Below are positions 1-34,933 of a DNA stretch of 64,000 nt, in pieces; the first letter of the stretch is position 1, and each line of letters starts with the position of its first letter. This DNA is from Candidatus Woesearchaeota archaeon. Its GTDB lineage: Archaea; Nanobdellota; Nanobdellia; Pacearchaeales; GW2011-AR1. The position numbers and the translations under genes were made by a program. The stretch covers positions 17,164-81,163 of the forward strand of contig CAZYZS010000002.1 of assembly GCA_964651965.1 (NCBI GenBank), written 5' to 3'. The notes beneath the pieces are model-generated. The model was not told the DNA's origin and made no database searches. It was given only the letters and a program-made list of their open reading frames with translations.

Positions 1-393
1 TGAATCAGTAGGAAGCCCGGTAGCAGGAACTTTTCCTCCAAGCTTTTTGATAAATTCTGCCAAAATCCTATATTCAGTGTCAGAAACTTTCCTAAGCTTG
101 CAATTCAGATACTCTATCTTTAAACTAACTCCGCTGTTTTGCACTCTTTTCAAAAGTTCCTCTCTAACGTACTGCACCGATAGTGTTTTGCCGCAGCCAG
201 TTTTCCCATAAACAAACAGGTTGCTTGGCCTTTCTCCTTTTAACGCAGGTGCTAGAATTGCTGCTATCTGCTCTATCTCCTTATCTCTATGGGGTATTGT
301 TTGAGGAGTATAATTGGACTGGAGCATGGACTTGTCCTTGAAAATCGTATTCTTAGTTGCAGAATCAAAAATCTTGTCTAACTTTACTACCAT
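1..393 (-). CDS. cdc6: Orc1/Cdc6 replication initiator, N-terminal part only; the gene continues beyond the window start
   Basis: Reverse translation from the ATG at 393 reads MVVKLDKIFDSATKNTIFKDKSMLQSNYTPQTIPHRDKEIEQIAAILAPALKGERPSNLFVYGKTGCGKT.... This is the classic Orc1/Cdc6 N-terminus with a Walker A motif. It is absent from the ORF track because it runs off the window edge. Confidence 0.8.
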   Translation of the reverse strand, partial: MVVKLDKIFDSATKNTIFKDKSMLQSNYTPQTIPHRDKEIEQIAAILAPALKGERPSNLFVYGKTGCGKTLSVQYVREELLKRVQNSGVSLKIEYLNCKLRKVSDTEYRILAEFIKKLGGKVPATGLPTDS

Positions 394-1719: not shown

Positions 1720-2145
1720 ATGAGAATAATTGGCTTTAATTTTAAAAAAATCAGTGCAGAGAGAAAAAGCGATTTAAAAGGAAAACTGCAAATAAAAACC
1801 CACATGGACCTAGAGAAAGTAGAAAAAGAAGATTTAGATATTGCAGGTGAAATCTTAAGATTTTCTTTTGTTTACACAATAAATTACGAGCCAAACCATG
1901 CAATAATCGCATTCGAAGGAAGCGTTTTGATAAAGCCAGACAAAGGTTACGATACCAAGCAGCTGCTCAAGGACTGGAAGAAAAAGAAGCTCCCAGAGGA
2001 AGTTCGTTTTTTGGTTTTTAACTTTGTTATGACCAAATGCAATTTAAGAGCTCTGCAGTTAGAAGAAGAATTTTCTCTTCCTCCGCACATTCCGCTCCCG
2101 AGAATCACCAAAGAGCAAGAAGGAAAAGTCAATTATACAGGATAA
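1720..2145 (+). CDS. hypothetical protein
   Basis: 141-aa ORF, not recognised. Confidence 0.4.
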   Translation: MRIIGFNFKKISAERKSDLKGKLQIKTHMDLEKVEKEDLDIAGEILRFSFVYTINYEPNHAIIAFEGSVLIKPDKGYDTKQLLKDWKKKKLPEEVRFLVFNFVMTKCNLRALQLEEEFSLPPHIPLPRITKEQEGKVNYTG

Positions 2146-2195
2146 AAGCATTCTTTATAAAACACATTCTCCATCGCAATAATAATTAAAAATAA

Positions 2196-2456
2196 TTGCG
2201 CGTGCTACACCTCATGCCAGAAAGCAGATATTCCTCAAAATTATGCGAATACATAGGAAAAGTCGAGCTAGAAGCCTTTCAGTCCAGAGATCAATTTAGG
2301 CGTTACACTCATTTTTGTGATGCTCCAAAGAGTTTGCCTAGCAGACTATCACCAGGAGAAATAGAATTAGCAAGAAAGTATTTCGCTTCAAGAGCAAGAG
2401 AAACACGCCCAGCAAATATTGGTAGTGCATCAAGCGACTCCAGCGAGGGAGACTAG
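2196..2456 (+). CDS. hypothetical protein in a GC-richer islet
   Basis: 86-aa ORF whose GC content is noticeably higher than its surroundings. Confidence 0.3.
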   Translation: MRVLHLMPESRYSSKLCEYIGKVELEAFQSRDQFRRYTHFCDAPKSLPSRLSPGEIELARKYFASRARETRPANIGSASSDSSEGD

Positions 2457-2518
2457 CACAAATTTTTCAACTTACAAATCCTATAATTTTATTAACCCTC
2501 TTATCTAAACTATTTTAT

Positions 2519-2614
2519 GCCCAGATGCGACAATGGTTTACTCGAGCGGTCTCGAATTGAAAACACGATAACCGCGTCCTTCGGGACTTCCAGGTTCGAA
2601 TCCTGGTCTGGGCG
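2519..2614 (+). tRNA. tRNA-Ser(CGA) with a putative 13-nt intron 3' of the anticodon
   Basis: Manual fold: acceptor GCCCAGA/TCTGGGC; anticodon stem GCGGT/ACCGC with loop CTCGAA[intron]A; class II variable hairpin GTCCTTCGGGAC; T-arm CCAGG-TTCGAAT-CCTGG. Confidence 0.6.
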
Positions 2615-2728
2615 TGCACTTCTTAGTTTCTTTATTATCTTATTAAGAGAAGCGCAGGCACAGCGGGCGTTACTATAACAACATCTATTTTAGAGGACAT
2701 AAATTCTTATAAGTCTCAGTTCTATTAT

Positions 2729-3160
2729 ATGGATATGTTAGTTTTGAGCAGGCAGAGAGACGAGTCTATAATGATTGGAGATGAAGTAGAAATAACTATT
2801 GTTGATGTTAGAGGAGATAAAGTCCGTCTTGGGATAACTTACCCTAAACGCATACCAGTTCATCGCAGAGAAATATACGATGCAATTCAGAGGGAAAAAG
2901 CCCAACAAGTTCAAGGAGATGCCCAAGTGCATGTTGAAGGTGCGCCTAGAGAGGCCGGGCTAGAAGAAAGAAATAAAGGAGGCTACTTTAATTGTTGTGG
3001 GGCTTATGGAGGAATGACAGCTACACAAGGAGCCCGCAGGAGAGTTTCTTCGACTGGAGTAGAAATATATTGTCAGAAAAGAGACAGCCAAGGTTATTGT
3101 GGATTTGAGCATACCGGCGATCCAAGCTTATGCCCTTTTAGTTTAGAAGGAGTGGTATAG
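2729..3160 (+). CDS. csrA: CsrA-family RNA-binding regulator homolog with a roughly 80-aa Cys-rich C-terminal extension; the likely start is the second Met at 2735
   Basis: MLVLSRQRDESIMIGDEVEITIVDVRGDKVRLGITYPKRIPVHRREIYDAIQREKAQQ aligns nearly position-for-position with E. coli CsrA ([58 protein letters not shown]). The extension contains CC...C...C...C. Confidence 0.75.
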   Translation: MDMLVLSRQRDESIMIGDEVEITIVDVRGDKVRLGITYPKRIPVHRREIYDAIQREKAQQVQGDAQVHVEGAPREAGLEERNKGGYFNCCGAYGGMTATQGARRRVSSTGVEIYCQKRDSQGYCGFEHTGDPSLCPFSLEGVV

Positions 3161-3173
3161 TCCTCCTAATAAT

Positions 3174-3929
3174 TTATACAAGCTCCCCAACTTTCCCAAA
3201 CTTATAGACTTCATCTCCAACAACATAAGCCTCAAACTCTCGTAGCTCTCTCTCAGGGATAAACATCCTGTTATCTTCAAGGTTTGCTACCTCGCTGCCC
3301 TCGACAAACGGGAAAAATGAAGGAAGGATTATTACTTTTTTATCTTTCCATTTCCCAACTAAGAAACATTTGTATTTTTCTTTTTTATAATCATCAGAGA
3401 GCACAACAGCAGGATGCCTGTGCCCCAACACCAACATTTTTATCCCTTTATCCAGGCATTCTGGAAATATTTTATCACCATGAACGAAACAAACCCCCTC
3501 TTCTACATAGTAGTCCACTACGCTCAGCTCTTTTCTCTCTGCAATTGGGCCCAAAACAGTATCATGATTTCCCTTAACAAGCACAACTTTTTCAGCTTTT
3601 TCTTTGAAAATATCCAAAATTCCTTTCACCTCTCTCCATTCCTGCTCAGAAATATCTCCAAATTCATGTTTTAAATCTCCAACAACAACTATTTCTTTTA
3701 TTTTTCCTTCATTTTCTTTTTTTATTTCTTCAAAAACCTTGTTCAAATCTTTTACAGTTTCTTCAAACTGATTTCTTGGAACAAAAATTCCCTGCTCATT
3801 CAGACTTTCTTCCCATCCCAGATGCAAATCTCCTAAAACCAGGATTTTCTGCACAGGAAAATACAGGGTTTTGCCTATAAACTTAAAATCATCCATAATA
3901 AACATGTAGCTTAAGAACTTTAAAAACAA
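3174..3929 (-). CDS. calcineurin-like metallophosphoesterase
   Basis: Motifs GDLHLG, VGDLKHEFG, GNHD, GHRH. Confidence 0.7.
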   Translation of the reverse strand: MFLKFLSYMFIMDDFKFIGKTLYFPVQKILVLGDLHLGWEESLNEQGIFVPRNQFEETVKDLNKVFEEIKKENEGKIKEIVVVGDLKHEFGDISEQEWREVKGILDIFKEKAEKVVLVKGNHDTVLGPIAERKELSVVDYYVEEGVCFVHGDKIFPECLDKGIKMLVLGHRHPAVVLSDDYKKEKYKCFLVGKWKDKKVIILPSFFPFVEGSEVANLEDNRMFIPERELREFEAYVVGDEVYKFGKVGELV

Positions 3930-3931
3930 TT

Positions 3932-4945
3932 CTAAATATCATAATTTCCTAAAGAATGCTGCCCGTGCTCGTGCACATTGTCAAACAAAACACTCAAAGA
4001 CTGCCCTGTTGCTGTCCTGTAAATAGCCTCTCCAAATAATTTTATCATGCTTACTACCTCTATGTTCTCTGCCTTTGGCGGATTTAAAGTATCAGAAACA
4101 AAAACCTTGTCAAAAATCTTGAATTTTTCAACACCTTCTGTAAATAATCCATGAGTCCCATAGGTAAAAATCTTCTTGGCCCCATTCTCTTTGAGCTTCT
4201 CCGCTGTTTTTATCATTGTATTTCCAGTATCAATAATATCATCCACAATCAAGCAGTTTTTTCCAGCAACGTCTCCAATGATTACTATTTTAGCCACCTC
4301 ATTGTCTTTTTCCCGTGTTTTATGCCCAAATGCAACTCCAGATTCTATACCCCTTTCTTTAAGCTTTTTGACAAAATAATCTGCTCTCTTTCCTCCTCCA
4401 AGGTCAGGCGAGACAATAATCAAGTCCTTTAGAAAATCCGAGTGATTTTTTTGAAGGTAATTAAGGAGGCTTGTTAAAGAATAAAGATTATCAAAGGGAA
4501 TCTTAAAATACTCCTGTATCTGCGGCGCATGCAAATCTACAGTCATTCCCCTGTCTGCGTAAAGCGAAACAGTATCTGCCAATGCCTTGGCATTAACACT
4601 TACTCTCGACTCATCTTTTCTGTCCTGTCTAGCAAACCGTGTGTAAGGCAAAACAATATTTACCTCTTTAGGAGAAGAAAAAGTAGTTGCTTCTAGCACA
4701 AAAATTAGTTCTGTGAACCATTCTGAAGGGTTTTTATTTGAATCATGGATTAAAAAGCATCTCTTCCCTCTTATGTTTTCAGCTATTTTTATCTTAAACT
4801 CTCCGTCTTTAAAGGTGCTTTTGTTCATATTAATAATGCTCACAGAAAAATCTTTGCTTTCTTTCATCTTTAAATAATCATAAATCCCCTTCGCGAAATC
4901 GTATCCTTTACTTTTAGGATCAACTATAAGGGCAACCTCTTCCAT
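3932..4945 (-). CDS. prs: ribose-phosphate pyrophosphokinase (PRPP synthetase)
   Basis: YTRFARQDRK, VDLHAPQIQEYF and the PRPP-binding loop VDDIIDTGNT. Confidence 0.85.
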   Translation of the reverse strand: MEEVALIVDPKSKGYDFAKGIYDYLKMKESKDFSVSIINMNKSTFKDGEFKIKIAENIRGKRCFLIHDSNKNPSEWFTELIFVLEATTFSSPKEVNIVLPYTRFARQDRKDESRVSVNAKALADTVSLYADRGMTVDLHAPQIQEYFKIPFDNLYSLTSLLNYLQKNHSDFLKDLIIVSPDLGGGKRADYFVKKLKERGIESGVAFGHKTREKDNEVAKIVIIGDVAGKNCLIVDDIIDTGNTMIKTAEKLKENGAKKIFTYGTHGLFTEGVEKFKIFDKVFVSDTLNPPKAENIEVVSMIKLFGEAIYRTATGQSLSVLFDNVHEHGQHSLGNYDI

Positions 4946-8388: not shown

Positions 8389-9330
8389 ATGAAAAAAGTA
8401 ATCCCAAAAGAGGTTAGAGAAAAGCTTTCTAAAATAATGAAGGAGAGGTGGAGTAATCCTCTTCTAAAACAAAGGATGTCTGAGTTGCATAAGGGAAAGA
8501 AACTTTCTGAAGAGCATAAACAAAAAATTCGTGAGTCTTGTTTAAGATGGAATAAAGAGGTGGGAATGCCCTCTGAAATAAGAAAAAGAATCGCCGAAAA
8601 ACAAAGAGGAAGAAGAGTTTCAGAAGAAACTAGGAGAAAAATTTCAAAAGCAAACAAAGGGCATAAAGCTTGGAACACAGGGCTTACAAAAGCGGACCCC
8701 CGAGTAAGAAAATACACCGAAAAGAAAGCAGAAACACAAAGAAGATTGTACAAAGAGGGCAAATTAGAGCCGGGGATGTTAGGAAAGTATCATACAGAAG
8801 AGACTAAGAGGAAACTTGCTACAAGATTAAAAGGCAAAACTTATGAAGAGATATTTGGGAAAGAAAAAGCTCTGAAATGCAAGAAAAAACTTTCAGAGCT
8901 AATGAAAAACAAGGTTCAAGGAGAAAAGAATCCTATGTATGGGAGATTTGGAGAAGAAAACCCCCATTTTGGAAAACTAGCAAGGCATGGGAAACACTCT
9001 TTCAGAAAAGACCTCGGGCACCATTGTCGTTCAAAATGGGAAGCCAACTATTGCAGGTTTCTTTTGTGGCTCAATAGGAAATATCAATATGAGCCAAAAA
9101 CATTCATTATAACTTTGCCCTCAGGGATCAAAGCCACTTATACTCCCGATTTTTTAGTTGATGGGAAAGAGTGGCACGAACTTAAGGGATGGGAAAACCG
9201 CTCAGAACTAAAAAAATGGAAATTTTTTCAAGAGCAATATCCTAATGAAAAATTTGTTTTTATAAACAAAGATAAATATAAAAACCTCAAAAATTTGTAC
9301 CAATATATCATCCCGAACTGGGAATTTTAA
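8389..9330 (+). CDS. Homing-endonuclease-like protein: NUMOD3 DNA-binding repeats plus a C-terminal PD-(D/E)XK nuclease-like domain
   Basis: Repeated (S/T)EE(H/T)(K/R)xKI motifs: LSEEHKQKIRES, VSEETRRKISKANKGHKAWNTG, HTEETKRKLATRLKGK. The C-terminus reads YTPDFLVDGKEWHELKGW, a PD...ELK pattern. Confidence 0.55.
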   Translation: MKKVIPKEVREKLSKIMKERWSNPLLKQRMSELHKGKKLSEEHKQKIRESCLRWNKEVGMPSEIRKRIAEKQRGRRVSEETRRKISKANKGHKAWNTGLTKADPRVRKYTEKKAETQRRLYKEGKLEPGMLGKYHTEETKRKLATRLKGKTYEEIFGKEKALKCKKKLSELMKNKVQGEKNPMYGRFGEENPHFGKLARHGKHSFRKDLGHHCRSKWEANYCRFLLWLNRKYQYEPKTFIITLPSGIKATYTPDFLVDGKEWHELKGWENRSELKKWKFFQEQYPNEKFVFINKDKYKNLKNLYQYIIPNWEF

Positions 9331-9332
9331 AA

Positions 9333-9602
9333 ATGGTGCGAATCTCTGAAGAAAAAAAGAATAGAATTAAATCTAACATTCTAGCACATCTCTACGGATG
9401 CTTTCCAAAAGCTCTATTTACTAGCGAAATCAGTAAATTAGAAGCCAGAGACGAAGAATTTACAAAAAACCTTCTCAAGGAATTATGGAAGAATAATCTG
9501 GTTGTAGCAATTAAGAAGAATTCTAATGGTGTCACTTTCAGCAGAAGGATTAAGTGGAGAATTGGCAATAAGGCCTATGAAGCCTACAAATCTCACCAGT
9601 AA
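9333..9602 (+). CDS. hypothetical protein
   Basis: 89-aa ORF tightly spaced after the nuclease gene. Confidence 0.35.
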   Translation: MVRISEEKKNRIKSNILAHLYGCFPKALFTSEISKLEARDEEFTKNLLKELWKNNLVVAIKKNSNGVTFSRRIKWRIGNKAYEAYKSHQ

Positions 9603-9655
9603 TATATGCTTTCTAATAAGTTAATATTTAAATAAACAGTGCCCCTTTGTAGGTT

Positions 9656-10549
9656 ATGGACGAAGTAAAGATAAAAGAAGCGTTTTTTAAGGTAAAAGAA
9701 GAGATCTTTAATCTAGGAAGCGAGTTATCTGAGATAAAAAAAGAGATGCAAGAAACAGCAAGATTGATAAGGCGGATGGATGAAGAGCTCACTCGGATAA
9801 AGATAGACCTTATGCTTAGGGAAGCTGAAAAATCCCCTAGTCAACTAACAGACAAACCAACAGTCAAACAGACAAGCACTCCAACACGCAGTCCAACAGA
9901 TAGCTTTCAAAATACGTCAAATTCTGTGACTCCAACATATAATCCGACACATGGACAGGAAATAGGGGGGTGGAATACCCAAAATTGGCAGACTTCCACA
10001 GGAAATGAAGGGGTTCCAACAGACAGACAGACAAACCAACAGACAGTCCAACAGACACATCTTTTACCTGAAATACCCCATTTAGCCACTACAAAATCAT
10101 CCACTTTAGATTCTTCCGCCTTAAATGTAGTTACTAATAAAAGTAGAGAAAATGCCCAGGAAAATACCCTTGTTTTTCCTCAAAAAATCTTCCAAGATTC
10201 CAAACCAATAAAGCAACAGATTTCAGAAGCCTCTGAAATCCTCGCATCCCTCGATAATATTAAGAGAGAAATAAGGAGGAAGTTTAAGTCCATAACTAAG
10301 CAGGAAATGCTCGTTTTTTCGACAATTTACACCCTAGAAGAGCAGAGCCCAGATGCAGACTATCAAAAAATAGCCTCTAAGCTTAGTTTAAGTGAATCTT
10401 CCATAAGAGACTATGTTCAAAGAATAGTAAAAAAAGGCATACCCATAGAGAAAGAAAAGCTAAATAATAAGAAAATTATCCTTCATATTTCTCCCGAACT
10501 CAAGAAAATTGCCACTTTAGACACTATAATTAGGCTTAGAAGCCTTTAA
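9656..10549 (+). CDS. coiled-coil protein with a Thr/Gln-rich low-complexity linker and a C-terminal winged-HTH-like domain
   Basis: N-terminal heptad-like region, a TSTPTRSPTDS...QQTVQQT low-complexity tract, and a C-terminal ...SESSIRDYVQRIVKKGIPIEK HTH-like segment. Confidence 0.45.
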   Translation: MDEVKIKEAFFKVKEEIFNLGSELSEIKKEMQETARLIRRMDEELTRIKIDLMLREAEKSPSQLTDKPTVKQTSTPTRSPTDSFQNTSNSVTPTYNPTHGQEIGGWNTQNWQTSTGNEGVPTDRQTNQQTVQQTHLLPEIPHLATTKSSTLDSSALNVVTNKSRENAQENTLVFPQKIFQDSKPIKQQISEASEILASLDNIKREIRRKFKSITKQEMLVFSTIYTLEEQSPDADYQKIASKLSLSESSIRDYVQRIVKKGIPIEKEKLNNKKIILHISPELKKIATLDTIIRLRSL

Positions 10550-11147
10550 ATTCTTCGCCAGCAGATAAATTTAACAAAGACCAATATTTTCGGTGTAACG
10601 AAATTAAAATGCGCTGCTAACTAAGATAAACCCCCTGCCTTCTCTGTTTTTTAGGGGTTTTAAGCCTTGTTGAGTTATTTTCTTTGCTTAAACAAGGCTC
10701 TCCTTATTTGAATATGCTATTTTTTGAATTCTCACTTTGTTATTATCAATAATTATTTCCTTTCCTTTTTTCCTCACTTTCGTCCCTTTGTTCTCCTTTT
10801 CCTGATTTTACTGGTTTTAAGCCGCAATTTCTCTTTATTTCAGCTTAAATTCTAAAGTTCCTCGGGCCAGTAAAACCCTCACTTTGGTCTATTTTTGCCC
10901 TTTTTCTTGGTTTTTATACTCCCTTTTCCCCTGTCCGTCCTTCTTTCTAAGTCCTTATTTCTCTCTTTTTCTGCAATACTTCTGTTTTCCCCAAAAGAGA
11001 CTTGTTTTTCCCTGTTTTTTAACTCTCACTTTTACCTTTTTTTCATAAAAAAGGTTCGTATAAGCTATAAAATAGTTCGGTTAAGGTTAATTCCCTATTC
11101 AAAACCTCCCTTTTCCCATTTTTAGCTTATTTTAACCCTATTTTAGC

Positions 11148-11858
11148 TTAGTTTAAGCTTTCTTCAGCCATTTCTGCTCTTTTTTCACTAAAACCCACAT
11201 CATTTCCCTTTCCATTCCTTTTTATCCTCACTTTGGCCTTTTTTAGCATCATTCCCTTTATCTGATCCGGTATGAAGAATCTTTTTTTGTTGTTTTTCCC
11301 CATTATCTCTTCTACCAAACCATCACTTTTCTGTTTTATGCTGTTTACTTGCCCCCTTATTGTTGCCCTTTCTTTTCCTAACATTGCGGCTAGGTCATCA
11401 TAGCTCAATTTCATTTCCGAATTTAACATGACCCACACTATTGCCCTTTCAGTCACAGACAAATTATCTAAAAAATTGTCCAAAAACGATGTTTGAACAG
11501 CTGTTTGAACAGGTGTTTGAACAGCTTCAACAGCTGTTTGTTTGTTAAACACTGTTTGTTGCTGTTTAAACAGCTTTTTGTTGCCGAGTATATCTATCAT
11601 ATTTTTTAGGTTTTCTATCTCAGATCTTATCGAGGACAATTCATCGTATATCTCAGAAATCTCTTCTTTTTGCTGGTCTCCCTTCTGGTTTAGGTGTTTA
11701 ATCCAGGTAGAGGTGTTTGAAAAATCCTGTTTAACATTGTTGAAGCCTGTTTGAACAGCATACCTTAATCTTTCAACATCATCAACATCTGCCTTTTTCT
11801 TAAACCAACCAAACATGAAATACCTAGAAAGACCCCCTTTAAATACCTTTCTGTCCAT
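11148..11858 (-). CDS. coiled-coil plus winged-HTH DNA-binding protein, a paralog-like partner of 9656..10549
   Basis: QTAVQT repeats and a C-terminal LSVTERAIVWVMLNSEMKLSYDDLAAMLGKERATIRGQV wHTH. Confidence 0.45.
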   Translation of the reverse strand: MDRKVFKGGLSRYFMFGWFKKKADVDDVERLRYAVQTGFNNVKQDFSNTSTWIKHLNQKGDQQKEEISEIYDELSSIRSEIENLKNMIDILGNKKLFKQQQTVFNKQTAVEAVQTPVQTAVQTSFLDNFLDNLSVTERAIVWVMLNSEMKLSYDDLAAMLGKERATIRGQVNSIKQKSDGLVEEIMGKNNKKRFFIPDQIKGMMLKKAKVRIKRNGKGNDVGFSEKRAEMAEESLN

Positions 11859-12782
11859 ACCTCTTAATTTTCTTGTTTTTATTTTTTATTTTTTGATTTT
11901 TTTTGTAAACAAACACTCTTAAACAGCTATAAACAGCTGTTTAAAGCATAAACAGCCCATATTTTTTCCGACGATAAAACAAAAAACAGCTGTTTAAACG
12001 GGGTTTTCCGCAAAATCCAACACATAATCCAACAGATCTCGACAAAATTTTAAGGGGTTAGCAGGATAGGGGCAAATTTTTTTACACTTTTTATAAAATC
12101 TCTTCAATTTTTTATATTTTTCGCATAAATTTTTTTCATCTTTTTTAAGTCTTTTAATATTTTTAACAAACAACTTGCAACTGCTTTTTTTATTGAATCA
12201 TTTGCAATTTTTTCTTTCATTTTTTGAATATCTGTTTTTTAATTTGCAAATTTTTTGCATTGCTCAATAATTTTTTGTTTTTTTTATGTCAAAAATTGCA
12301 AAAAAGCTTATCTTTTTTTCAATTTTCTGCGATTAAAAGTTTTTATCATTGCTTAAATGTTTAAATTGGAGAATAACCTGCATAAATTTGTTAAATTTTT
12401 AAAAAATAATAAAAAAATCGGATTAATTTTGTTAAAAGTCTGTTCAATTTTTATAAAAATTTTTAGTGAGTGCCCAAAAAGAACAAAAATTCTATCCAGC
12501 ACCCAAATTAATCAGTCTTGCTAGTAGAACCGGTCCGAAGTTTCTATTTTTATCCTTTTTGCCTTCTTTTTAGGCAAGCTTTGTTGTTTTAATCTTTAAT
12601 CAAGTCACTTTCTTGATAGTTTCTTTTTAGTCTAGCCCTAACCCGAGCTTATTTACCCTAAATAAAACCTCTTATCAAAGCTTAAAACTTCCTGCATGCC
12701 TAAAAATTTCAAAAACCCATAAATAGCTAAAATATATATTCAAAAACAGCAAACCTTAAATATTTGTGAGATATTTTTTCCT

Positions 12783-13052
12783 ATGGAGCAAAATCGCCAA
12801 AATAGTGTAAGTTTAGTTCATGAACTTAGAGAAAAGCTGTATGTTCTTCAAGTAGTAGAATATTATCCGGGCGAAAAGGATCCAAGGACCATGAACACTT
12901 TTTTTAAGTATGACTCTTCAAACCAGGAGTTTAATCCAGACCAGGTGCTTAATAAGGCCTATCAACATGGGCTTGCAAGAGCAAAAGCTTTAGGGGTAGA
13001 ATTGGTATTGGAGGACGAATTAGCCCAAAGAGCAAAAAAAAGAGAGAGTTAA
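12783..13052 (+). CDS. hypothetical small protein (cassette gene A)
   Basis: 89-aa ORF preceded by a conserved upstream module. Confidence 0.4.
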   Translation: MEQNRQNSVSLVHELREKLYVLQVVEYYPGEKDPRTMNTFFKYDSSNQEFNPDQVLNKAYQHGLARAKALGVELVLEDELAQRAKKRES

Positions 13053-13195
13053 ATATTTCAATCAATGCTTAAAACTTCTTGCAAGCCTAAATTTCCTAAA
13101 AACCATTGCTTTTTTGCAGTTTTCAACAGCTGTTTATTAAAAAACATTGTTTAAACAACATAAATGTTTAAAAACAAGAAGATTTTTAATGGGCT

Positions 13196-13585
13196 ATGAG
13201 AAAAGAGAAATACTTGGATGGGGAGGGTCATCCTCTTAAAGAAGGATGGTACATAGGCGTTTTTCCTGGAAGTTCAACAAGTGCTGCTGCAAATGCGGTG
13301 AGAAATCTGCATTTTATTAGGCGAGAAGGTGGCGGCTTTTTAGCCTATTACGAGAAGGTTCCAACTCGCTTAAATCCTGATTTCGCAAAGAACTTTTACC
13401 CATTAGATGTTAAGACCTACCTTGGGATGTTAAGAGATAGAATGGGTCGTGTTTTAGGGGTTGTTGAGAAAATGGTAGGAGAAGGAGTCTTGTCTGAAGA
13501 TTTGAAAGAGAGCCTTCGTCAAACCCTCGGCGCTTCTCCTTATATTTCAGGAAGAGGTTCTTGGAAGCGCCGCCCTTCCCGATAA
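13196..13585 (+). CDS. hypothetical small protein (cassette gene B)
   Basis: 129-aa ORF preceded by a conserved upstream module. Confidence 0.4.
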   Translation: MRKEKYLDGEGHPLKEGWYIGVFPGSSTSAAANAVRNLHFIRREGGGFLAYYEKVPTRLNPDFAKNFYPLDVKTYLGMLRDRMGRVLGVVEKMVGEGVLSEDLKESLRQTLGASPYISGRGSWKRRPSR

Positions 13586-13761
13586 ATCCTTGTTAATTCT
13601 TTTAATCATTGCTTAAAACTTTTAGCATAGTCAAAATTCATAAAAACCACTGCTTTTTTCGCATTTTTTTATGGTGTTTTTGTTGTTTTTCCAGTTGTTT
13701 ATACAAAAACATTGTTTAAACAACATAAATGCTTAAATAATTTGAATTTTTTAAACGAGTT

Positions 13762-14151
13762 ATGAGTAAAGCGAATTATGAAGTTTTTTTAATTCATCCA
13801 GGAGCGGAGTTCCACCTGAATGGTTACGAGAGGGATTCAAATCACCATTCAAATTGGGGTACAGTAATTAGAAAAAATAAGGGGGTATTTGATTCTATCT
13901 ATTCATTTGTATCTATTCCCTTTCATGAGCCCGAAGAATCGGGGAAACCCCCCAAGCATTATATCGTGATGCAGTATTCTCAATCGAATGGGAAAGCAGA
14001 AAAATCAAAATTAGTTTCTATAATCGATAATCCTGCTGAAGATACTGGAGAAGCTTTGGCAAGAGAGCGAGCAGAAAAACTCGCTAGAATGTATGCTCAA
14101 AAGAGAGCGGCTAAATACGGTGTAGAAACACAAGAGATTCTACCTATTTAA
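13762..14151 (+). CDS. hypothetical small protein (cassette gene C)
   Basis: 129-aa ORF preceded by a conserved upstream module. Confidence 0.4.
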   Translation: MSKANYEVFLIHPGAEFHLNGYERDSNHHSNWGTVIRKNKGVFDSIYSFVSIPFHEPEESGKPPKHYIVMQYSQSNGKAEKSKLVSIIDNPAEDTGEALARERAEKLARMYAQKRAAKYGVETQEILPI

Positions 14152-14320
14152 GCCTGTCAAATCTTCTTATCAAAGCTTAAAACTTCCTGCAAGCATGTTT
14201 TTTAGCATAAAATAGTGACTAAAACACCGTAAGATTTATATACTTAGGGCACCCTAAGTAATCGTGAACCGGCTTTTAAATACCCTAAGTTCACACCTAA
14301 ATCCACAAAAGAGGTAAAAA

Positions 14321-15091
14321 ATGACTGAAAATTTCGCAAAACCCTTAGCTGCAATCTATGTTCGAGTTTCCACCCAAGATCAAGCACAGCATGGATTTTC
14401 TCTTGATGCACAACAAGATTCTTTGATTAACTATTCAAAAGCATTAGGTTATGAGGTTTATAAAATTTATAGAGATGAGGGAAAATCTGCCAAGGACCTG
14501 AAACGGCCTGAAATGAGCCATTTACTTAGGGATGCAGAAGAAAGGAAGTTTCAGGCAATCTTTATTTATAAATTAGACCGGTTTTCAAGAAGCTTAAAAG
14601 ATTTAATCTTAACAATCGACAAACTAAAGGAATGGGGTATAGACTTTATTTCCTTGCAAGATAAAATAGAAACCGCTTCTGCTTCTGGAAAGCTTATGTT
14701 CCATATTATCTCGGCTTTTGCGGAATTTGAAAGAAATATAATAGGGGATAGGACTAAATTCGGTATGGAGAGAAAAGCCAAGGAAGGGGGTTTTATAACA
14801 AAGGCCCCCTGTGGATATAAGCTTGTTAATAAAGAACTAATAATAGACCGTGAAACAGCAGAGCAGGTTAAACAGATATACCAAGAATTTGCTGAAAAGG
14901 AGATTTCTTTAACAAGCCTAGCCAAAGCCCATGGATTTACTACCTCCGGAATTAAGAAGCTTCTTAAAAATACTACTTACCTTGGCAAGGTTAAATTTGC
15001 AGAGCAAGAGAGTGCAGGGAAACATGAGGCCTTACTCAGCGAAGATCTATTCCAGAAGGTTCAAGAGAAACTCGGCTCTTTAAAAAAATGA
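14321..15091 (+). mobile_element. small serine recombinase (resolvase/invertase family) with a C-terminal HTH
   Basis: N-terminal AAIYVRVSTQDQ with the catalytic Ser, then DRFSRS and a resolvase-like core of 256 aa. Confidence 0.8.
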
Positions 15092-15648
15092 AAATTCTTC
15101 CAAAAACAGAAAGAGAAGCACTAGATATAGTATATAGCGTACTAAATCAGGGTGATTCAAGGTATAATGATCCTCAAAGTGAAATAATTTTATCGAAGTT
15201 TTTGTTAAATGGGGCAATTTCTTTGGAAGAAAGGCACTTTCCAGAGATTAATAGCCCAGAAAAAAGTGAACTTGAAAGCATCAAAGGAGTACAAAGAGCA
15301 GATAAATATCTAGCAAAAATACTCTTGGAAAAAGAAGGGTTTAAAGATTCAGAAATCTTTTTTGAGAGAGCTTTTTTAGGCTCTCGCCCAGATGTTCTTG
15401 CAGAGTCTGAAAGTAAGATTATTGCAGTGGAATGTTGTTCATGCAGAATAGACAAGATAGTAAATTATCTTCCAGAAGTAGAGGCAGTCTGGATATTAAC
15501 GCTAGGAGAGTCGCCATGGGGAAATATCCATTACCTAAAGGAGAAAATGCATTGGTACATTTTCAGAAAAGGAGTAAATTGGAACAGAGTTCTAGACTTT
15601 CAAAAAAAGAAAATTGAAGAATTAAAGAAAGTTCCAAGTTTGTTATAA
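15088..15648 (+). CDS. hypothetical protein, start overlapping the recombinase stop; possible PD-(D/E)XK-like core
   Basis: 186-aa ORF containing RPDVLAESESKIIAVEC. Confidence 0.35.
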   Translation: MKILPKTEREALDIVYSVLNQGDSRYNDPQSEIILSKFLLNGAISLEERHFPEINSPEKSELESIKGVQRADKYLAKILLEKEGFKDSEIFFERAFLGSRPDVLAESESKIIAVECCSCRIDKIVNYLPEVEAVWILTLGESPWGNIHYLKEKMHWYIFRKGVNWNRVLDFQKKKIEELKKVPSLL

Positions 15649-15688
15649 CATCGATTAAAACTTTTAATCGCAGAAAAATCCAAAAAAT

Positions 15689-15841
15689 TTACCAAAGAAT
15701 AAAAGCAACCAAGATAAAAACGATCAGTATTGTAATCAAAATCGCCAGGAGTTTTTTAGTGATTGTGTAAGTAAAAGTTCCAGCAGCTACAACAACTACG
15801 CAAGCAATTATCAACCAGACTTTTTGTGATAGTTCATCCAT
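15689..15841 (-). CDS. 50-aa single-TM protein not in the ORF track; paralog of 16368..16520
   Basis: MDELSQKVWLIIACVVVVAAGTFTYTITKKLLAILITILIVFILVAFILW, flanked by ATTAAAACTTTTAAT inverted repeats. Confidence 0.4.
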   Translation of the reverse strand: MDELSQKVWLIIACVVVVAAGTFTYTITKKLLAILITILIVFILVAFILW

Positions 15842-15866
15842 TTTGATTAAAACTTTTAATTAGTTA

Positions 15867-16328
15867 TTACTCACATCCCCTACATTCACATCTGCATTTA
15901 TCCTCAACACAATATGGCTTAAATCCTTCTAATAACCCTGGTTGTTCATAATCTGAACAATTAATTACCTCACAATCAGAATTAAGGTTACAGGAGTCAT
16001 ATTCTCCAAAATACTCGCACCTGTTGTTTTTGCATATAACTTCCTTATTGCAAATCATCGAGCACATTTTTCCTGTATAGCCCAAGCATAGTAACCCTGC
16101 TTTATTTTCATATATCTTTAAATATTTTTTGTTTACAGCATCTCCACAATGGCAAGAACAATGGGTAGCTACATGAACGCAGTCTTCATCTGTCTCGCAT
16201 ATTTTATGTTCGGGCTCTATTTTAATAGAGTCAGGGATTAAAGCAAAAAATAAGATTACAGCCACAATTAATATAACAACTATAATCAAAACAATTTTCC
16301 ACTTCTTTTTCATTTGAACAGTAAACAA
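15867..16328 (-). CDS. secreted or anchored cysteine-rich protein
   Basis: N-terminal TM/signal anchor followed by about 24 Cys in 120 residues. Confidence 0.5.
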   Translation of the reverse strand: MFTVQMKKKWKIVLIIVVILIVAVILFFALIPDSIKIEPEHKICETDEDCVHVATHCSCHCGDAVNKKYLKIYENKAGLLCLGYTGKMCSMICNKEVICKNNRCEYFGEYDSCNLNSDCEVINCSDYEQPGLLEGFKPYCVEDKCRCECRGCE

Positions 16329-16367
16329 AAAGACTTAATAAAACTTCCCATTAAAACTTTTAATCGC

Positions 16368-16520
16368 CTAAACAAAAAACAAAATTATTGCAATTATCAA
16401 GACTATTGCTGCTAAAATCCAAAATAACTTTTTAGCAATCTTAAGTCCTATTATGAACAACAAAACAGCTACTACCAAGGTTACAATCGGATATGTTCTG
16501 GCTAATGCATATAAATCCAT
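16368..16520 (-). CDS. 50-aa single-TM protein not in the ORF track
   Basis: MDLYALARTYPIVTLVVAVLLFIIGLKIAKKLFWILAAIVLIIAIILFFV, the same 153-nt length as 15689..15841. Confidence 0.35.
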   Translation of the reverse strand: MDLYALARTYPIVTLVVAVLLFIIGLKIAKKLFWILAAIVLIIAIILFFV

Positions 16521-16541
16521 AGAAAACAATAGTCAACGTTC

Positions 16542-16970
16542 TTAATAAATTCTTCTATCTTTCCCTCTTTCGTCCAATGCTTTATTCACTAGTTTATCAG
16601 CCTCTTGCATATGTTCGTTTTCTCTTGGAACATTCTGATAAGAAACTTCTTCAAACTCTTTTTCTGCTTTTTCAACCTGTTCAAACAGCTCCTTCAGCTC
16701 TTTTTTCTTTATTTTATACTCCCCATTCAGTTGCCTGACAACAAGCTCAGAATCCGAATAAATATGCACTTTTTTAGCATATTTTTTGCACAGTTCTAAG
16801 GCCCTAATTATTGCCCTGTATTCAGCTTCATTGTTGGTTTTTATGCCAACAAACTCTTTATATTCTTCAATCATCTGGTCATTTTCATCTAAAATTATTA
16901 TGCCAATAGCGGCTTTTCCAGGATTTCCTCTTGCCCCACCATCTGTATAAACAAACAATCTTTTTTCCAT
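16542..16970 (-). CDS. rnhA: ribonuclease HI (type 1 RNase H)
   Basis: YTDGGARGNPG, NNEAEY, YSDSELVV and the C-terminal H...D motif. Confidence 0.75.
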   Translation of the reverse strand: MEKRLFVYTDGGARGNPGKAAIGIIILDENDQMIEEYKEFVGIKTNNEAEYRAIIRALELCKKYAKKVHIYSDSELVVRQLNGEYKIKKKELKELFEQVEKAEKEFEEVSYQNVPRENEHMQEADKLVNKALDERGKDRRIY

Positions 16971-24591: not shown

Positions 24592-25428
24592 ATGAATAAA
24601 GAGGAATTTTTAAAAAAGATTGAAACCGAGCTAAAAATATCTAAAAATTCTGCTTACACCATTCGCAATTATGTTGCCTACAACGCCGCCCTTCTTGAAT
24701 TTTCTAAAAAAACTCCAGAAGAACTATCTTTAGATGACGTTAAACTTTACATAGCAGAACATTTGACAGAAAAATCTTCTTCTTCAGTTATACTTTTTCT
24801 TGCGGCAATTAAATATGCCCATTCTACAATATTTTCACGAGATATTACAGCAGGAATAAAACGCCCAAAAAAAGAAAAGAAAATACCAACAGTCCTCTCA
24901 AAAGAAGAGATAAAAGCGCTTCTATCTTCAATAACCAATTCAAAAAGTAAGCTGATGATAAGCCTATTGTATGCCTGCGGTTTTAGGGTTTCTGAGTTAG
25001 TTAACCTTAAAATACGAGATTTAGATTTCAACAATAAAGTAGGGCATGCAAGGCAGGCGAAAGGAAAAAAAGATAGGACTTTTAATATCCCAGAATTTCT
25101 TGTTTTGGTCTTGATGCAGCGAGCAGAAAAACAAAAATCACTCAATCAAGAGTATCTTTTCACAGGCCCAAAAGGCCGGTTATCTTCAAGAAACGTACAA
25201 AAAATTGTTAAAAAAGCAGCGAAAAAAGCAGGAATAGAAAAAGAAGTCCATCCCCATACCCTCAGACATTCTTTCGCCACTCACCTTCTTGAAAATGGAA
25301 CAGACATAAGGATGATACAGGAATTACTTGGACACAGCGACCTCAGCACAACACAAATATATACTCATATTTCTAATGAAGAACTAAAGAAAATAAAAAG
25401 CCCAATTGATAGTTTAATGAAAGAATAA
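24592..25428 (+). CDS. xerA: tyrosine recombinase, XerA/XerC/XerD-like
   Basis: C-terminal HTLRHSFATHLLENGTDIRMIQELLGHSDLSTTQIYTHI with R, HxxR and the catalytic Y. Confidence 0.8.
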   Translation: MNKEEFLKKIETELKISKNSAYTIRNYVAYNAALLEFSKKTPEELSLDDVKLYIAEHLTEKSSSSVILFLAAIKYAHSTIFSRDITAGIKRPKKEKKIPTVLSKEEIKALLSSITNSKSKLMISLLYACGFRVSELVNLKIRDLDFNNKVGHARQAKGKKDRTFNIPEFLVLVLMQRAEKQKSLNQEYLFTGPKGRLSSRNVQKIVKKAAKKAGIEKEVHPHTLRHSFATHLLENGTDIRMIQELLGHSDLSTTQIYTHISNEELKKIKSPIDSLMKE

Positions 25429-27793: not shown

Positions 27794-27809
27794 GTTGAAA
27801 ATTATGGAG

Positions 27810-27905
27810 TGCGGGGAGAAGGGATCGAACCTTCGCAGGCACTAAGCCACATGGTTTCTACAAGCTGCCTTAGCCATGCCCGTTTGACCGCTCCGGCATC
27901 CCCGC
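27810..27905 (-). tRNA. class II tRNA (Leu-type) with a roughly 12-nt insertion (putative intron) in the anticodon arm; anticodon not resolved
   Basis: The reverse complement reads GCGGGGATGCCGGAGCGGTCAAACGGG-CATGG...CCATG-TGGCTTAGTGCCTGC-GAAGGTTCGATCCCTTC-TCCCCGCA. It shares its acceptor, D arm, variable arm and T arm with the gene at 34711. Confidence 0.6.
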
Positions 27906-34430: not shown

Positions 34431-34545
34431 GAAGACGGCCATAGTAATCAGGAAACACCTGTTCCCATCTCGAACACAGCAGTTAAGCTGATTACGTTCA
34501 TGGAATACTCGATTAAGGGGAAACCATGAAGCTGTCCTCGCTATT
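34431..34545 (+). rRNA. rrf: 5S ribosomal RNA; ends approximate
   Basis: GACGGCCATAG...GGAAACACC...CCCATCTCGAACA...CAGTTAAGC, with a terminal helix GACGGC/GCTGTC. Confidence 0.65.
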
Positions 34546-34710: not shown

Positions 34711-34832
34711 GCGGGGATGCCGGAGCGGTCAAACGGGACAGACCATAAATTTAATATGGGTCCAAACTCAAGAAAACGTTTGAGCAATCTGTTGGCTTAG
34801 TGCCTGCGTAGGTTCAATTCCTACTCCCCGCA
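34711..34832 (+). tRNA. class II tRNA (Leu-type) with an unusually long (about 45-nt) insertion in the anticodon arm; anticodon not resolved (possibly CAA)
   Basis: GCGGGGATGCCGGAGCGGTCAAACGGG-ACAGA[45 nt]TCTGT-TGGCTTAGTGCCTGC-GTAGGTTCAATTCCTAC-TCCCCGCA. The insertion contains CTCAAGA. Confidence 0.5.
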
Positions 34833-34933
34833 CTTACTCTTTTAAATAATACAAAAGGACAGCAAAGCGTAAATGCGGGCCCCCGCATCTCTCTCTAGTA
34901 TAGATTTATAAATGGTAAAAATCAACCTTTAAC

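What the first reader, a model, noticed from the sequence alone, without database searches (positions are those of the whole stretch)
2196..3160. Bacterial-type CsrA homolog with a Cys-rich C-terminal extension, in a GC-richer islet next to tRNA-Ser in an archaeon
Residues 3-60 align almost position-for-position with the E. coli CsrA dimer fold, including the GxxG and VHRxE RNA-binding positions. CsrA is an essentially bacterial post-transcriptional regulator, usually paired with FliW or small RNAs carrying GGA motifs, and none of that is evident here. Its GC content (about 45-48%) is far above the flanking genes, and it abuts an intron-containing tRNA-Ser. This fits a horizontally acquired islet integrated at the tRNA. 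The extra roughly 80 aa carry CC/C/C/C residues, suggesting a novel metal-binding fusion.
Basis: partly seen in the sequence, partly recalled or inferred. Interest (0 to 1): 0.7.

Follow-up and report, generated by a model that had tools for sequence, protein, structure and literature searches.

The report
Archaeal CsrA with new cysteine domain
A small DPANN-type archaeon (Woesearchaeota-like) stably carries a bacterial-type RNA-binding regulator, CsrA, fused to a previously undescribed four-cysteine domain; this matters because CsrA has been regarded as exclusively bacterial.

Summary
Window 2735-3160 (+) encodes a 141-aa protein (143 aa from ATG 2729). Its first 58 residues are a full CsrA domain (PF02599, E=1.6e-22) and align without gaps to E. 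coli CsrA. A variable linker and a ~60-aa domain with four invariant Cys follow. That domain has no Pfam or PDB relative. Among 1.84 billion representative proteins it occurs only fused to CsrA.

A tRNA-Ser(CGA) with a 13-nt intron lies 113 nt upstream. The contig is archaeal (Cdc6/Orc1, RpoD, L18e, intron tRNAs), and its closest labelled relatives are Woesearchaeota MAGs.

The "recent islet" reading is not supported:
- Third-codon-position GC is host-like (29%).
- There is no integrase or att repeat.
- The locus assembles in four samples.
- The same gene order (orf141, tRNA-Ser, csrA-Cys, convergent metallophosphoesterase) recurs in five diverged lineages.
- Both domains are under purifying selection.
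- An invariant archaeal TATA-type promoter box sits upstream in all eight loci.

The closest CsrA domains are Phycisphaerae-type (up to 96%). The best reading is an old bacterium-to-archaeon transfer that was domesticated and fused to a new, probably metal-binding, module. RNA binding, metal binding and targets are all untested, and structure prediction failed.

The parts
2735..3160 (+). csrA-Cys coding sequence, 141 aa plus stop (an alternative upstream ATG at 2729 gives 143 aa)
   Evidence: ORF. The identical protein is called in four independent assemblies. Homologues all start MLVLSR. Purifying selection acts on both halves.
2735..2908 (+). CsrA domain, residues 1-58
   Evidence: PF02599 E=1.6e-22. 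Ungapped alignment to E. coli CsrA 1Y00, E=5.7e-16, with L4 and R44 present. 95-96% identical to the Phycisphaerae-type bacterial consensus.
2909..2977 (+). Variable linker, residues 59-81, rich in Q/E/G/A
   Evidence: Its length varies widely and it is poorly conserved among the 10-12 family members.
2978..3157 (+). Novel C-terminal four-Cys domain, residues 82-141. Invariant residues: C87, G89, Y91, C113, G120, Y121, C122, C133, E138.
   Evidence: Alignments A1 and A5. Its profile finds only 5 clusters among 1.84 billion representatives, all CsrA fusions of 119-146 aa. No Pfam or PDB match. dN/dS about 0.2 against the closest orthologue.
2700..2712 (+). Conserved promoter box TAAATTCTTATAA (archaeal BRE/TATA type), 23-35 nt upstream of ATG 2735. 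It implies a leaderless or near-leaderless mRNA.
   Evidence: TAAAT[TC][CT]TTATAA is invariant at the same distance in six aligned loci and is also seen in L074 and L076. It occurs once in the window.
2518..2615 (+). tRNA-Ser(CGA) with a 13-nt anticodon-loop intron, directly upstream of csrA-Cys
   Evidence: ARAGORN -i. An orthologous tRNA-Ser lies upstream of csrA-Cys in L001/L073, L037 and L076, and the GGA isoacceptor does so in L035.
2196..2456 (+). Small conserved ORF (86 aa) of unknown function in the same slot. It is a neighbour and not shown to be functionally linked.
   Evidence: 76% identical ORF in L037. Called as an 84-aa gene in independent assemblies. No Pfam hit. Absent in L001.
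3174..3929 (-). Convergent metallophosphoesterase gene, the conserved syntenic neighbour of csrA-Cys (gene callers use 3174-3905, 243 aa)
   Evidence: PF00149. Adjacent and convergent in the window, L001/L073, L036, L037 and L076.

Best explanation
The gene is a resident, functional gene of a Woesearchaeota-like (DPANN) archaeal lineage. An ancestor acquired a Phycisphaerae-type bacterial csrA next to a tRNA-Ser gene. The gene then came under an archaeal TATA-type promoter as a leaderless transcript. It gained, by C-terminal extension, a new ~60-residue domain with four invariant cysteines joined through a flexible linker.

Inferred mechanism:
- The CsrA part dimerises and binds single-stranded GGA motifs in RNA, as bacterial CsrA does. 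Its RNA-contact residues are intact.
- The two tethered Cys domains per dimer probably bind a metal (Zn or an Fe-S cluster). They would act as a built-in regulatory or partner-docking module, at the position where Bacillus CsrA carries its FliW-binding extension. This would replace the missing FliW or sRNA antagonists.
- Most genes here look leaderless and poor in Shine-Dalgarno (SD) sequences. Targets are therefore more likely GGA sites at 5' ends, inside coding regions or on internal cistrons than classical SD-occluding leader sites.

Shown: family membership by sequence, archaeal residency, age, selection, promoter conservation and domain novelty. Inferred: RNA binding, metal binding, regulatory role and targets.
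For: CsrA identity. L4 and R44, named as critical for RNA binding in PMC7652899, are present, and R44 is invariant in the family.

Not an artefact: the same locus appears in two JGI and two Logan assemblies.

Archaeal genome. Intron-bearing tRNAs. The closest labelled genome contigs are Candidatus Woesearchaeota MAGs. One of them, L011, shares the Lhr, PRPP synthase, metallophosphoesterase, orf141, PRC and Cdc6 genes, though the order is not fully preserved.

Old and vertically kept: the order orf141, (tRNA-Ser), csrA-Cys, convergent metallophosphoesterase recurs in the window, L037, L001/L073, L036 and L076. Metallophosphoesterase identity ranges from 43 to 87% and Lhr from 70 to 82%.

Host-like GC3.

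Selection: window against L037 gives CsrA-domain dN 0.058 with dS saturated, and Cys-domain dN 0.136 against dS 0.67.

Promoter: an invariant TATA-type box at a fixed distance in all loci, including those with a different context.

Domain novelty and restriction to CsrA fusions.

Bacterial source type: up to 96% identity to sequences labelled Phycisphaerae, Phycisphaerales or Sedimentisphaerales.

Leaderless, SD-poor setting: 51% of genes have a TATA-like hexamer at -36..-19 against 11% at random positions. SD-like tetramers occur in 13% against 10%.

C-terminal helices and extensions of CsrA are known partner-binding sites, for example for FliW (PMC13443453).
Against: - No experiment or usable structure model supports RNA or metal binding. 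AlphaFold2 gave pLDDT 44 for the full length and 48 for the Cys domain.
- The Cys spacing (C-x25-C-x8-C-x10-C) lacks the CxxC knuckles typical of zinc ribbons.
- The usual CsrA target layout, a 5' leader with SD, is largely absent in the window. Canonical action therefore cannot simply be assumed.
- No antagonist RNA or protein and no target was identified. GGA-dense stretches are explained by base composition.
- Only about 12 distinct family members exist, most on short contigs.
- The CsrA domains do not form a clade on 56 residues, so a single transfer is inferred from the shared Cys domain, promoter and synteny rather than from a tree.
- The phylum label rests on the titles of related MAG records.
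Confidence: 0.6

Rival explanations
1. A recently acquired genomic islet, integrated at the tRNA-Ser gene and still compositionally foreign.
For: The region is the GC-richest ~1 kb of the window (z=2.6). It abuts a tRNA. The related genome L011 lacks both the tRNA-Ser and csrA at this site. In L037 and L035 extra genes sit exactly between tRNA-Ser and csrA-Cys, so the tRNA flank accepts insertions.
Against: GC3 is 29.2%, below the gene mean, so the excess GC is at codon positions 1 and 2. There is no integrase, and no direct repeat of the tRNA end. Synteny is conserved across lineages with 43-87% identical neighbours. Synonymous sites are saturated between orthologues. An archaeal promoter is conserved upstream.
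Confidence: 0.07
2. An assembly chimera or bacterial contamination: the csrA piece does not belong to the archaeal chromosome.
For: The CsrA domain is 95-96% identical to bacterial sequences.
Against: An identical junction appears on both sides in four independent assemblies, on contigs up to 109 kb. An orthologous locus with 54% identical protein lies in the same gene order in other samples. GC3 is host-like. An archaeal TATA box and leaderless layout are present. The Cys domain is never found in labelled bacterial proteins.
Confidence: 0.01
3. A domesticated CsrA fold that no longer acts as a GGA-binding translational regulator. It could instead be a protein-binding adaptor or an RNA chaperone or stability factor for structured RNAs such as tRNA-Ser, with the Cys domain providing the main activity.
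For: Canonical SD-containing leaders are rare here. No FliW or decoy RNA was seen. There is a repeated physical link to tRNA-Ser genes, including the GGA-anticodon isoacceptor in L035. The archaeal CsrA domains diverge faster than the bacterial type.
Against: The RNA-contact residues and the whole beta1/beta5 surface are nearly unchanged from bacterial CsrA. The CsrA half is under strong purifying selection. The gene neighbourhood gives no direct functional clue.
Confidence: 0.2
4. A small mobile cassette (promoter plus csrA-Cys) spread among DPANN genomes by viruses or other mobile elements, and serving conflict or host manipulation rather than housekeeping regulation.
For: The promoter travels with the gene into different contexts: L034 next to FtsZ, L035 after MazE-PIN, and L074. 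Plain CsrA genes occur on 35 IMG/VR viral contigs. The family is rare and patchy.
Against: None of the viral CsrA loci inspected carries the Cys domain. Five of eight contexts share one chromosomal synteny. No recombinase is adjacent.
Confidence: 0.1

Closest known systems
CsrA/RsmA of Gammaproteobacteria (E. coli CsrA, PDB 1Y00; RsmE-hcnA complex 2JPP)
   Same: The whole 58-residue domain aligns without gaps (E=5.7e-16) and keeps L4, R44 and the VHR.E stretch. It is expected to dimerise and bind GGA in the same way (inference from PMC7652899).
   Different: It adds an 83-residue extension (linker plus four-Cys domain). The host is archaeal. The mRNA is leaderless. No CsrB/C-like decoy RNA was detected in the window, and the setting is SD-poor.
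Phycisphaerae/Planctomycetota CsrA (e.g. MBP7050299.1 cluster, P0093, P0106, P0024)
   Same: The closest sequences, with up to 96% identity over the 56-residue core. This is the probable donor type.
   Different: The bacterial proteins are 83-96 aa with low-complexity, Cys-free tails. None has the four-Cys domain.
Bacillus/Geobacillus CsrA with the FliW-binding C-terminal extension (PDB 5DMB)
   Same: An extension follows the C-terminal helix, the site used for regulation by a protein partner (PMC13443453). PDB chain 5DMB_D matches at E=4.4e-14.
   Different: The extension here is a folded-domain-sized Cys module unrelated in sequence. No FliW or flagellin gene is in the window.
Single-chain tandem CsrA-CsrA proteins from metagenomes (P0004-P0012 and others)
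   Same: They are also architectural variants of the same Phycisphaerae-like CsrA core, and rank among the top hits.
   Different: They duplicate the CsrA domain rather than adding a Cys domain. Their hosts are unknown.
Virus-encoded CsrA homologues (IMG/VR contigs)
   Same: They carry a CsrA core.
   Different: Only the core matches (query residues 1-50/60), with no Cys domain.

Membership tests
CsrA/RsmA family (Pfam PF02599) | Significant full-length match to the family profile | tested here: met
   E=1.6e-22, 79.7 bits against a cutoff of 27, profile positions 1-52 of 53. Nine PDB CsrA sequences match at E<=1e-9.
CsrA/RsmA family (Pfam PF02599) | RNA-contact residues on beta1 and beta5 (L4, R44 and neighbours) | tested here: met
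   MLVLSR...VHRRE aligns position for position with E. coli CsrA. R44 is invariant in 10 family members. The importance of these residues is taken from PMC7652899.
CsrA/RsmA family (Pfam PF02599) | Interlocked homodimer fold | tested here: inconclusive
   A monomer AlphaFold2 run gave pLDDT 44. No multimer prediction was available.
CsrA/RsmA family (Pfam PF02599) | Binding of GGA motifs and post-transcriptional regulation | not testable with these tools
   This needs EMSA, SELEX or reporter assays.
Csr/Rsm system (regulator plus antagonist) | A cognate antagonist: a multi-GGA decoy sRNA or FliW | tested here: inconclusive
   No FliW family hit among window ORFs of at least 110 aa. No Rfam CsrB/Rsm match. 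The GGA-dense stretch at 10550-11147 is explained by purine-rich composition. Only 64 kb of the genome was visible.
tRNA-targeted genomic island | Integrase or recombinase at the island border | tested here: not met
   The slot 2146-3173 holds only ORF86, tRNA-Ser and csrA-Cys. The nearest recombinases are at 14.3 kb and 24.6 kb.
tRNA-targeted genomic island | Direct repeat of the tRNA 3' end (att) at the far border | tested here: not met
   Only short chance-level repeats occur in 1900-4200.
tRNA-targeted genomic island | Foreign composition at synonymous sites | tested here: not met
   GC3 is 29.2% against 32.6 +/- 3.6% (z=-1.0).
tRNA-targeted genomic island | Presence/absence polymorphism among relatives | tested here: met
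   The L011 Woesearchaeota MAG has an unrelated 117-aa ORF in place of tRNA-Ser plus csrA-Cys.
Zinc ribbon / classical Cys4 zinc fingers | Two CxxC (or CxxH) knuckles, or a match to a known Zn-binding profile | tested here: not met
   The invariant Cys are spaced x25, x8 and x10. No Pfam family matches more than 1 of 12 members, with a best E-value of 0.12. No PDB hit at E<=10.

The most novel reading that the evidence does not exclude
This is the first Csr-type post-transcriptional regulator native to archaea. A DPANN lineage captured a bacterial CsrA and turned it into a self-contained one-protein switch. A new metal- or redox-sensing four-Cys domain, tethered to the RNA-binding dimer, would gate GGA-RNA binding in place of FliW or decoy sRNAs. 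The protein would act on leaderless archaeal mRNAs by a mechanism other than Shine-Dalgarno occlusion.
Probability: 0.3. Interest if true: 0.8.

Novelty: new variant of a known kind. Interest (0 to 1): 0.62.

Why it matters
A comparative-genomics study states that CsrA is found exclusively in bacteria, and it anticipated that archaeal homologues might turn up in metagenomes (PMC7366521). My full-text searches found no paper on an archaeal CsrA.

Here a complete CsrA has been kept under selection in an archaeal lineage, with an archaeal promoter and a new fused domain. This gives:
- a concrete case of cross-domain transfer of a global RNA regulator;
- a natural experiment on how CsrA works where mRNAs are leaderless and lack Shine-Dalgarno sites;
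- a new small Cys domain whose ligand and role can be tested with a 141-residue recombinant protein.

It is also a reminder that raised GC can come from amino-acid composition rather than from foreign DNA.

Tried and rejected
1. Structure. AlphaFold2 on the full length with a 10-sequence alignment gave pLDDT 44. On the Cys domain with 12 sequences it gave pLDDT 48. Neither model was usable, so no fold search was run, and both prediction jobs are spent.

2. The search for homologous proteins with the Cys-domain alignment returned nothing, although members are in the database. The exhaustive representative search was used instead.

A narrower alignment in metagenome contigs found only one locus, identical to P0015.

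4. The search for a decoy sRNA found GGA-dense windows that lie in coding regions or in a purine-rich spacer. The spacer's count is about what its base composition predicts. Rejected as evidence.

5. Looked for att repeats of the tRNA end and found none.

6. No notable RNA structure in the 5' coding region of the transcript (z=+1.5).

7. An NJ tree of the 56-residue core did not resolve an archaeal clade, so no phylogenetic claim is made from it.

8. The groundwater multi-omics paper that lists csrA among highly expressed genes of ultra-small prokaryotes does not say whether DPANN were the source. Its held supplements do not mention csrA.

9. The exact look-up of P0001 (141 aa) failed, while the 143-aa form is on record.

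Full report
**What is there**

Window 2729-3160 (+) is a 143-codon ORF. Pfam gives one hit, CsrA PF02599, at E=1.6e-22 and 79.7 bits (cutoff 27). It covers profile positions 1-52 of 53.

Against PDB sequences, residues 1-58 (numbered from the second ATG at 2735) align without a gap to E. coli CsrA 1Y00 at E=5.7e-16. Eight further solved CsrA/Rsm sequences also match. L4 and R44 are both present; the review PMC7652899 singles these two out as critical for RNA binding.

Nothing in PDB or Pfam matches the remaining 83 residues. Those residues contain Cys at 89, 90, 115, 124 and 135 in 143-aa numbering.

ARAGORN run with introns allowed finds tRNA-Ser(CGA) at 2518-2615 with a 13-nt intron. The default run and Rfam at gathering score missed it.

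Only the GC figures are somewhat high:
- region 2196-3160: 41.9% against 35.3 +/- 2.5% for 965-bp windows (z=2.6);
- csrA ORF: 43.1%;
- C-terminal half of the ORF: 45.9%.

**Host and reality of the locus**

The window is archaeal. It carries the following:
- Cdc6/Orc1 at the left end;
- an S13-S4-S11-RpoD(Fe-S)-L18e-L13 cluster and DUF655;
- an Lhr helicase and a PRC-barrel protein;
- intron-bearing tRNAs.

The exact protein, with identical flanks, is present in two JGI assemblies and two Logan assemblies, on contigs up to 109 kb. This excludes a chimera.

The adjacent metallophosphoesterase finds its best relatives on genome contigs titled Candidatus Woesearchaeota archaeon. One of these, L011 (65% identity), shares the Lhr, PRPP synthase, metallophosphoesterase, orf141, PRC and Cdc6 genes.

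**A conserved family, not a one-off**

The homology search returned thousands of bacterial CsrAs. It also returned a small set of 119-146-aa proteins that match the query over its full length. Their alignment shows three parts:
- the CsrA core;
- a linker of variable length;
- a C-terminal module with invariant C87, G89, Y91, C113, G120, Y121, C122, C133 and E138.

A profile of this module was scored against all 1.84 billion representative proteins. It found five clusters, all CsrA fusions of this size, plus two long Cys-repeat proteins that look like noise. A metagenome scan added only one further locus. No viral CsrA carries the module.

The module is thus a rare orphan domain known only in this fusion.

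**Age and selection**

Eight contexts were recovered.
- In the window, L037, L001/L073, L036 and L076 the gene is followed by the same convergent metallophosphoesterase. Where sequence is available it is preceded by the orf141 orthologue.
- Neighbour identities to the window range from 43 to 87% for the metallophosphoesterase and from 70 to 82% for Lhr.
- L011 is about as distant as L036 by Lhr identity. It lacks both tRNA-Ser and csrA-Cys and has an unrelated 117-aa ORF there. This looks like a loss or replacement.

Between orthologues the synonymous sites are saturated, while the CsrA half has dN of 0.06-0.18. For the closest pair the Cys half has dN 0.136 against dS 0.67.

GC3 of the gene is 29.2% (z=-1.0). 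The raised GC lies at codon positions 1 and 2 and comes from Gly/Ala/Arg-rich protein composition. There is no integrase in the slot and no att-like repeat.

The "recent, compositionally foreign islet" reading is therefore rejected. An old insertion beside tRNA-Ser remains possible:
- tRNA-Ser precedes the gene in five of eight contexts;
- in L037 (TrmB, methyltransferase, membrane protein) and in L035 (MazE-PIN) other cargo lies exactly between the tRNA and the gene.

**Origin**

The window's CsrA core is 95-96% identical to a bacterial sequence type. The labelled members of that type are Phycisphaerae, Phycisphaerales and Sedimentisphaerales.

Every archaeal member is closer to that bacterial consensus (66-95%) than to its archaeal relatives (63-81% on average). 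This fits one transfer from a slowly evolving donor type followed by faster divergence in archaea. However, 56 residues cannot prove a single event. The shared Cys domain, promoter and synteny are the stronger arguments for it.

**Expression signals**

All loci, including those in different contexts, carry the box TAAAT[TC][CT]TTATAA. It sits 17-33 nt upstream of the ATG that begins MLVLSR. The box occurs once in the window, at 2700-2712.

This is an archaeal TATA-type promoter placed for a leaderless transcript, and it fixes the start at 2735.

Across the window, 35 of 68 genes have a TATA-like hexamer at -36..-19, against 11% at random positions. Only 9 of 68 have a Shine-Dalgarno-like tetramer, against 10% at random.

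**How it most likely works**

Shown: a complete CsrA core with intact RNA-contact residues, under strong purifying selection, fused through a flexible linker to a conserved four-Cys domain that is itself under selection.

Inferred:
- The core dimerises and binds GGA-containing single-stranded RNA as in bacteria.
- The Cys domains, two per dimer, bind a metal (Zn or Fe-S).
- They act as a built-in regulatory or docking module at the position used by FliW on Bacillus CsrA (PMC13443453).

Leaders with SD sites are rare here. The classical mechanism, occlusion of the SD in a 5' leader, can therefore apply at most to some internal cistrons. Binding at 5' ends, within coding regions or to non-coding RNAs is more likely.

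No FliW, flagellin or archaellin gene and no Rfam Csr/Rsm RNA occurs in the 64 kb. GGA-dense stretches are compositional.

Structure prediction failed twice. The fold and ligand of the Cys domain are therefore open. Its Cys spacing (x25, x8, x10) does not fit zinc ribbons.

**Comparison with what is known**

By sequence it is a member of the CsrA family. By architecture and host it is a new variant. A comparative study states that CsrA has been detected exclusively in bacteria and foresaw possible archaeal homologues from metagenomes (PMC7366521). A 2026 survey of more than 20,000 homologues is confined to bacteria (PMC13443453). My searches found no paper on archaeal CsrA. One groundwater study lists csrA among highly expressed genes of ultra-small prokaryotes without attributing it to DPANN.

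**Verdict**

- Observation: confirmed.
- Interpretation: partly supported. Bacterial origin and a novel Cys-rich fusion hold; a recent tRNA-integrated, GC-foreign islet does not.
- Novelty: new variant of a known kind.
- Interest: 0.62. The case is surprising for CsrA and archaeal RNA-biology specialists and can be tested directly with a small recombinant protein. It is tempered by the rarity of the family, frequent bacterial gene uptake in DPANN archaea (general knowledge), and the absence of functional data.

Noticed in passing
window 1-393 (-) and 600-760: The N-terminal part of a Cdc6/Orc1 gene is followed by a 22% GC stretch full of AT palindromes. This is a candidate replication origin about 2 kb from csrA-Cys. 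L011 also keeps Cdc6 beside the PRC-barrel gene.
   Followed up: partly
proteins P0004-P0012, P0014, P0016, P0018, P0033 (metagenomic): These are single-chain tandem CsrA-CsrA proteins of 118-230 aa, among the best hits. Four of them (P0005, P0006, P0007, P0011) share a further C-terminal domain. They could be covalent pseudo-dimers.
   Followed up: no
L037:791-2663 and L035:266-855: Extra cargo is inserted exactly between tRNA-Ser and csrA-Cys. In L037 it is a TrmB-like regulator, a methyltransferase and a 105-aa membrane protein. In L035 it is a MazE-PIN toxin-antitoxin pair behind a tRNA-Ser(GGA). The tRNA flank looks like an insertion hot spot.
   Followed up: partly
window 2196-2456 (+): An 86-aa ORF with no Pfam match is conserved at 76% identity in L037 and called as a gene in independent assemblies, but it is absent in L001. 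It is a real small gene of unknown function.
   Followed up: partly
window 8389-16970 and 24592-25428: A mobile-element-like stretch holds a NUMOD3 protein, an HTH protein, a serine recombinase (14321-15091) and an RNase H-like protein (16542-16970). A separate tyrosine integrase lies at 24592-25428.
   Followed up: no
window 10550-11147 (- strand): A ~600-nt ORF-free, purine-rich spacer has 11 GGA per 200 nt. The count is about what its A/G composition predicts, so it is not taken as a CsrB-like decoy.
   Followed up: partly
whole window (68 predicted genes): About half of the genes have a TATA-like hexamer 19-36 nt upstream of the start codon, and Shine-Dalgarno-like motifs are not enriched. 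This suggests predominantly leaderless mRNAs.
   Followed up: yes
window 27809-27905 (-) and 34711-34833 (+): With introns allowed, ARAGORN calls two more intron-bearing tRNAs of doubtful identity. One lies between RpoD and L18e, the other just after the 5S rRNA (34431-34540). Rfam does not report them at gathering score.
   Followed up: no
L038-L072 (IMG/VR viral contigs): Thirty-five viral contigs encode plain CsrA homologues with 29-83% identity to the query core. None of those inspected has the Cys domain.
   Followed up: partly
window 41996-62803: A large cluster of glycosyltransferases, methyltransferases, radical SAM enzymes, an aminotransferase and a carbamoyltransferase looks like a surface-glycan biosynthesis island.
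   Followed up: no
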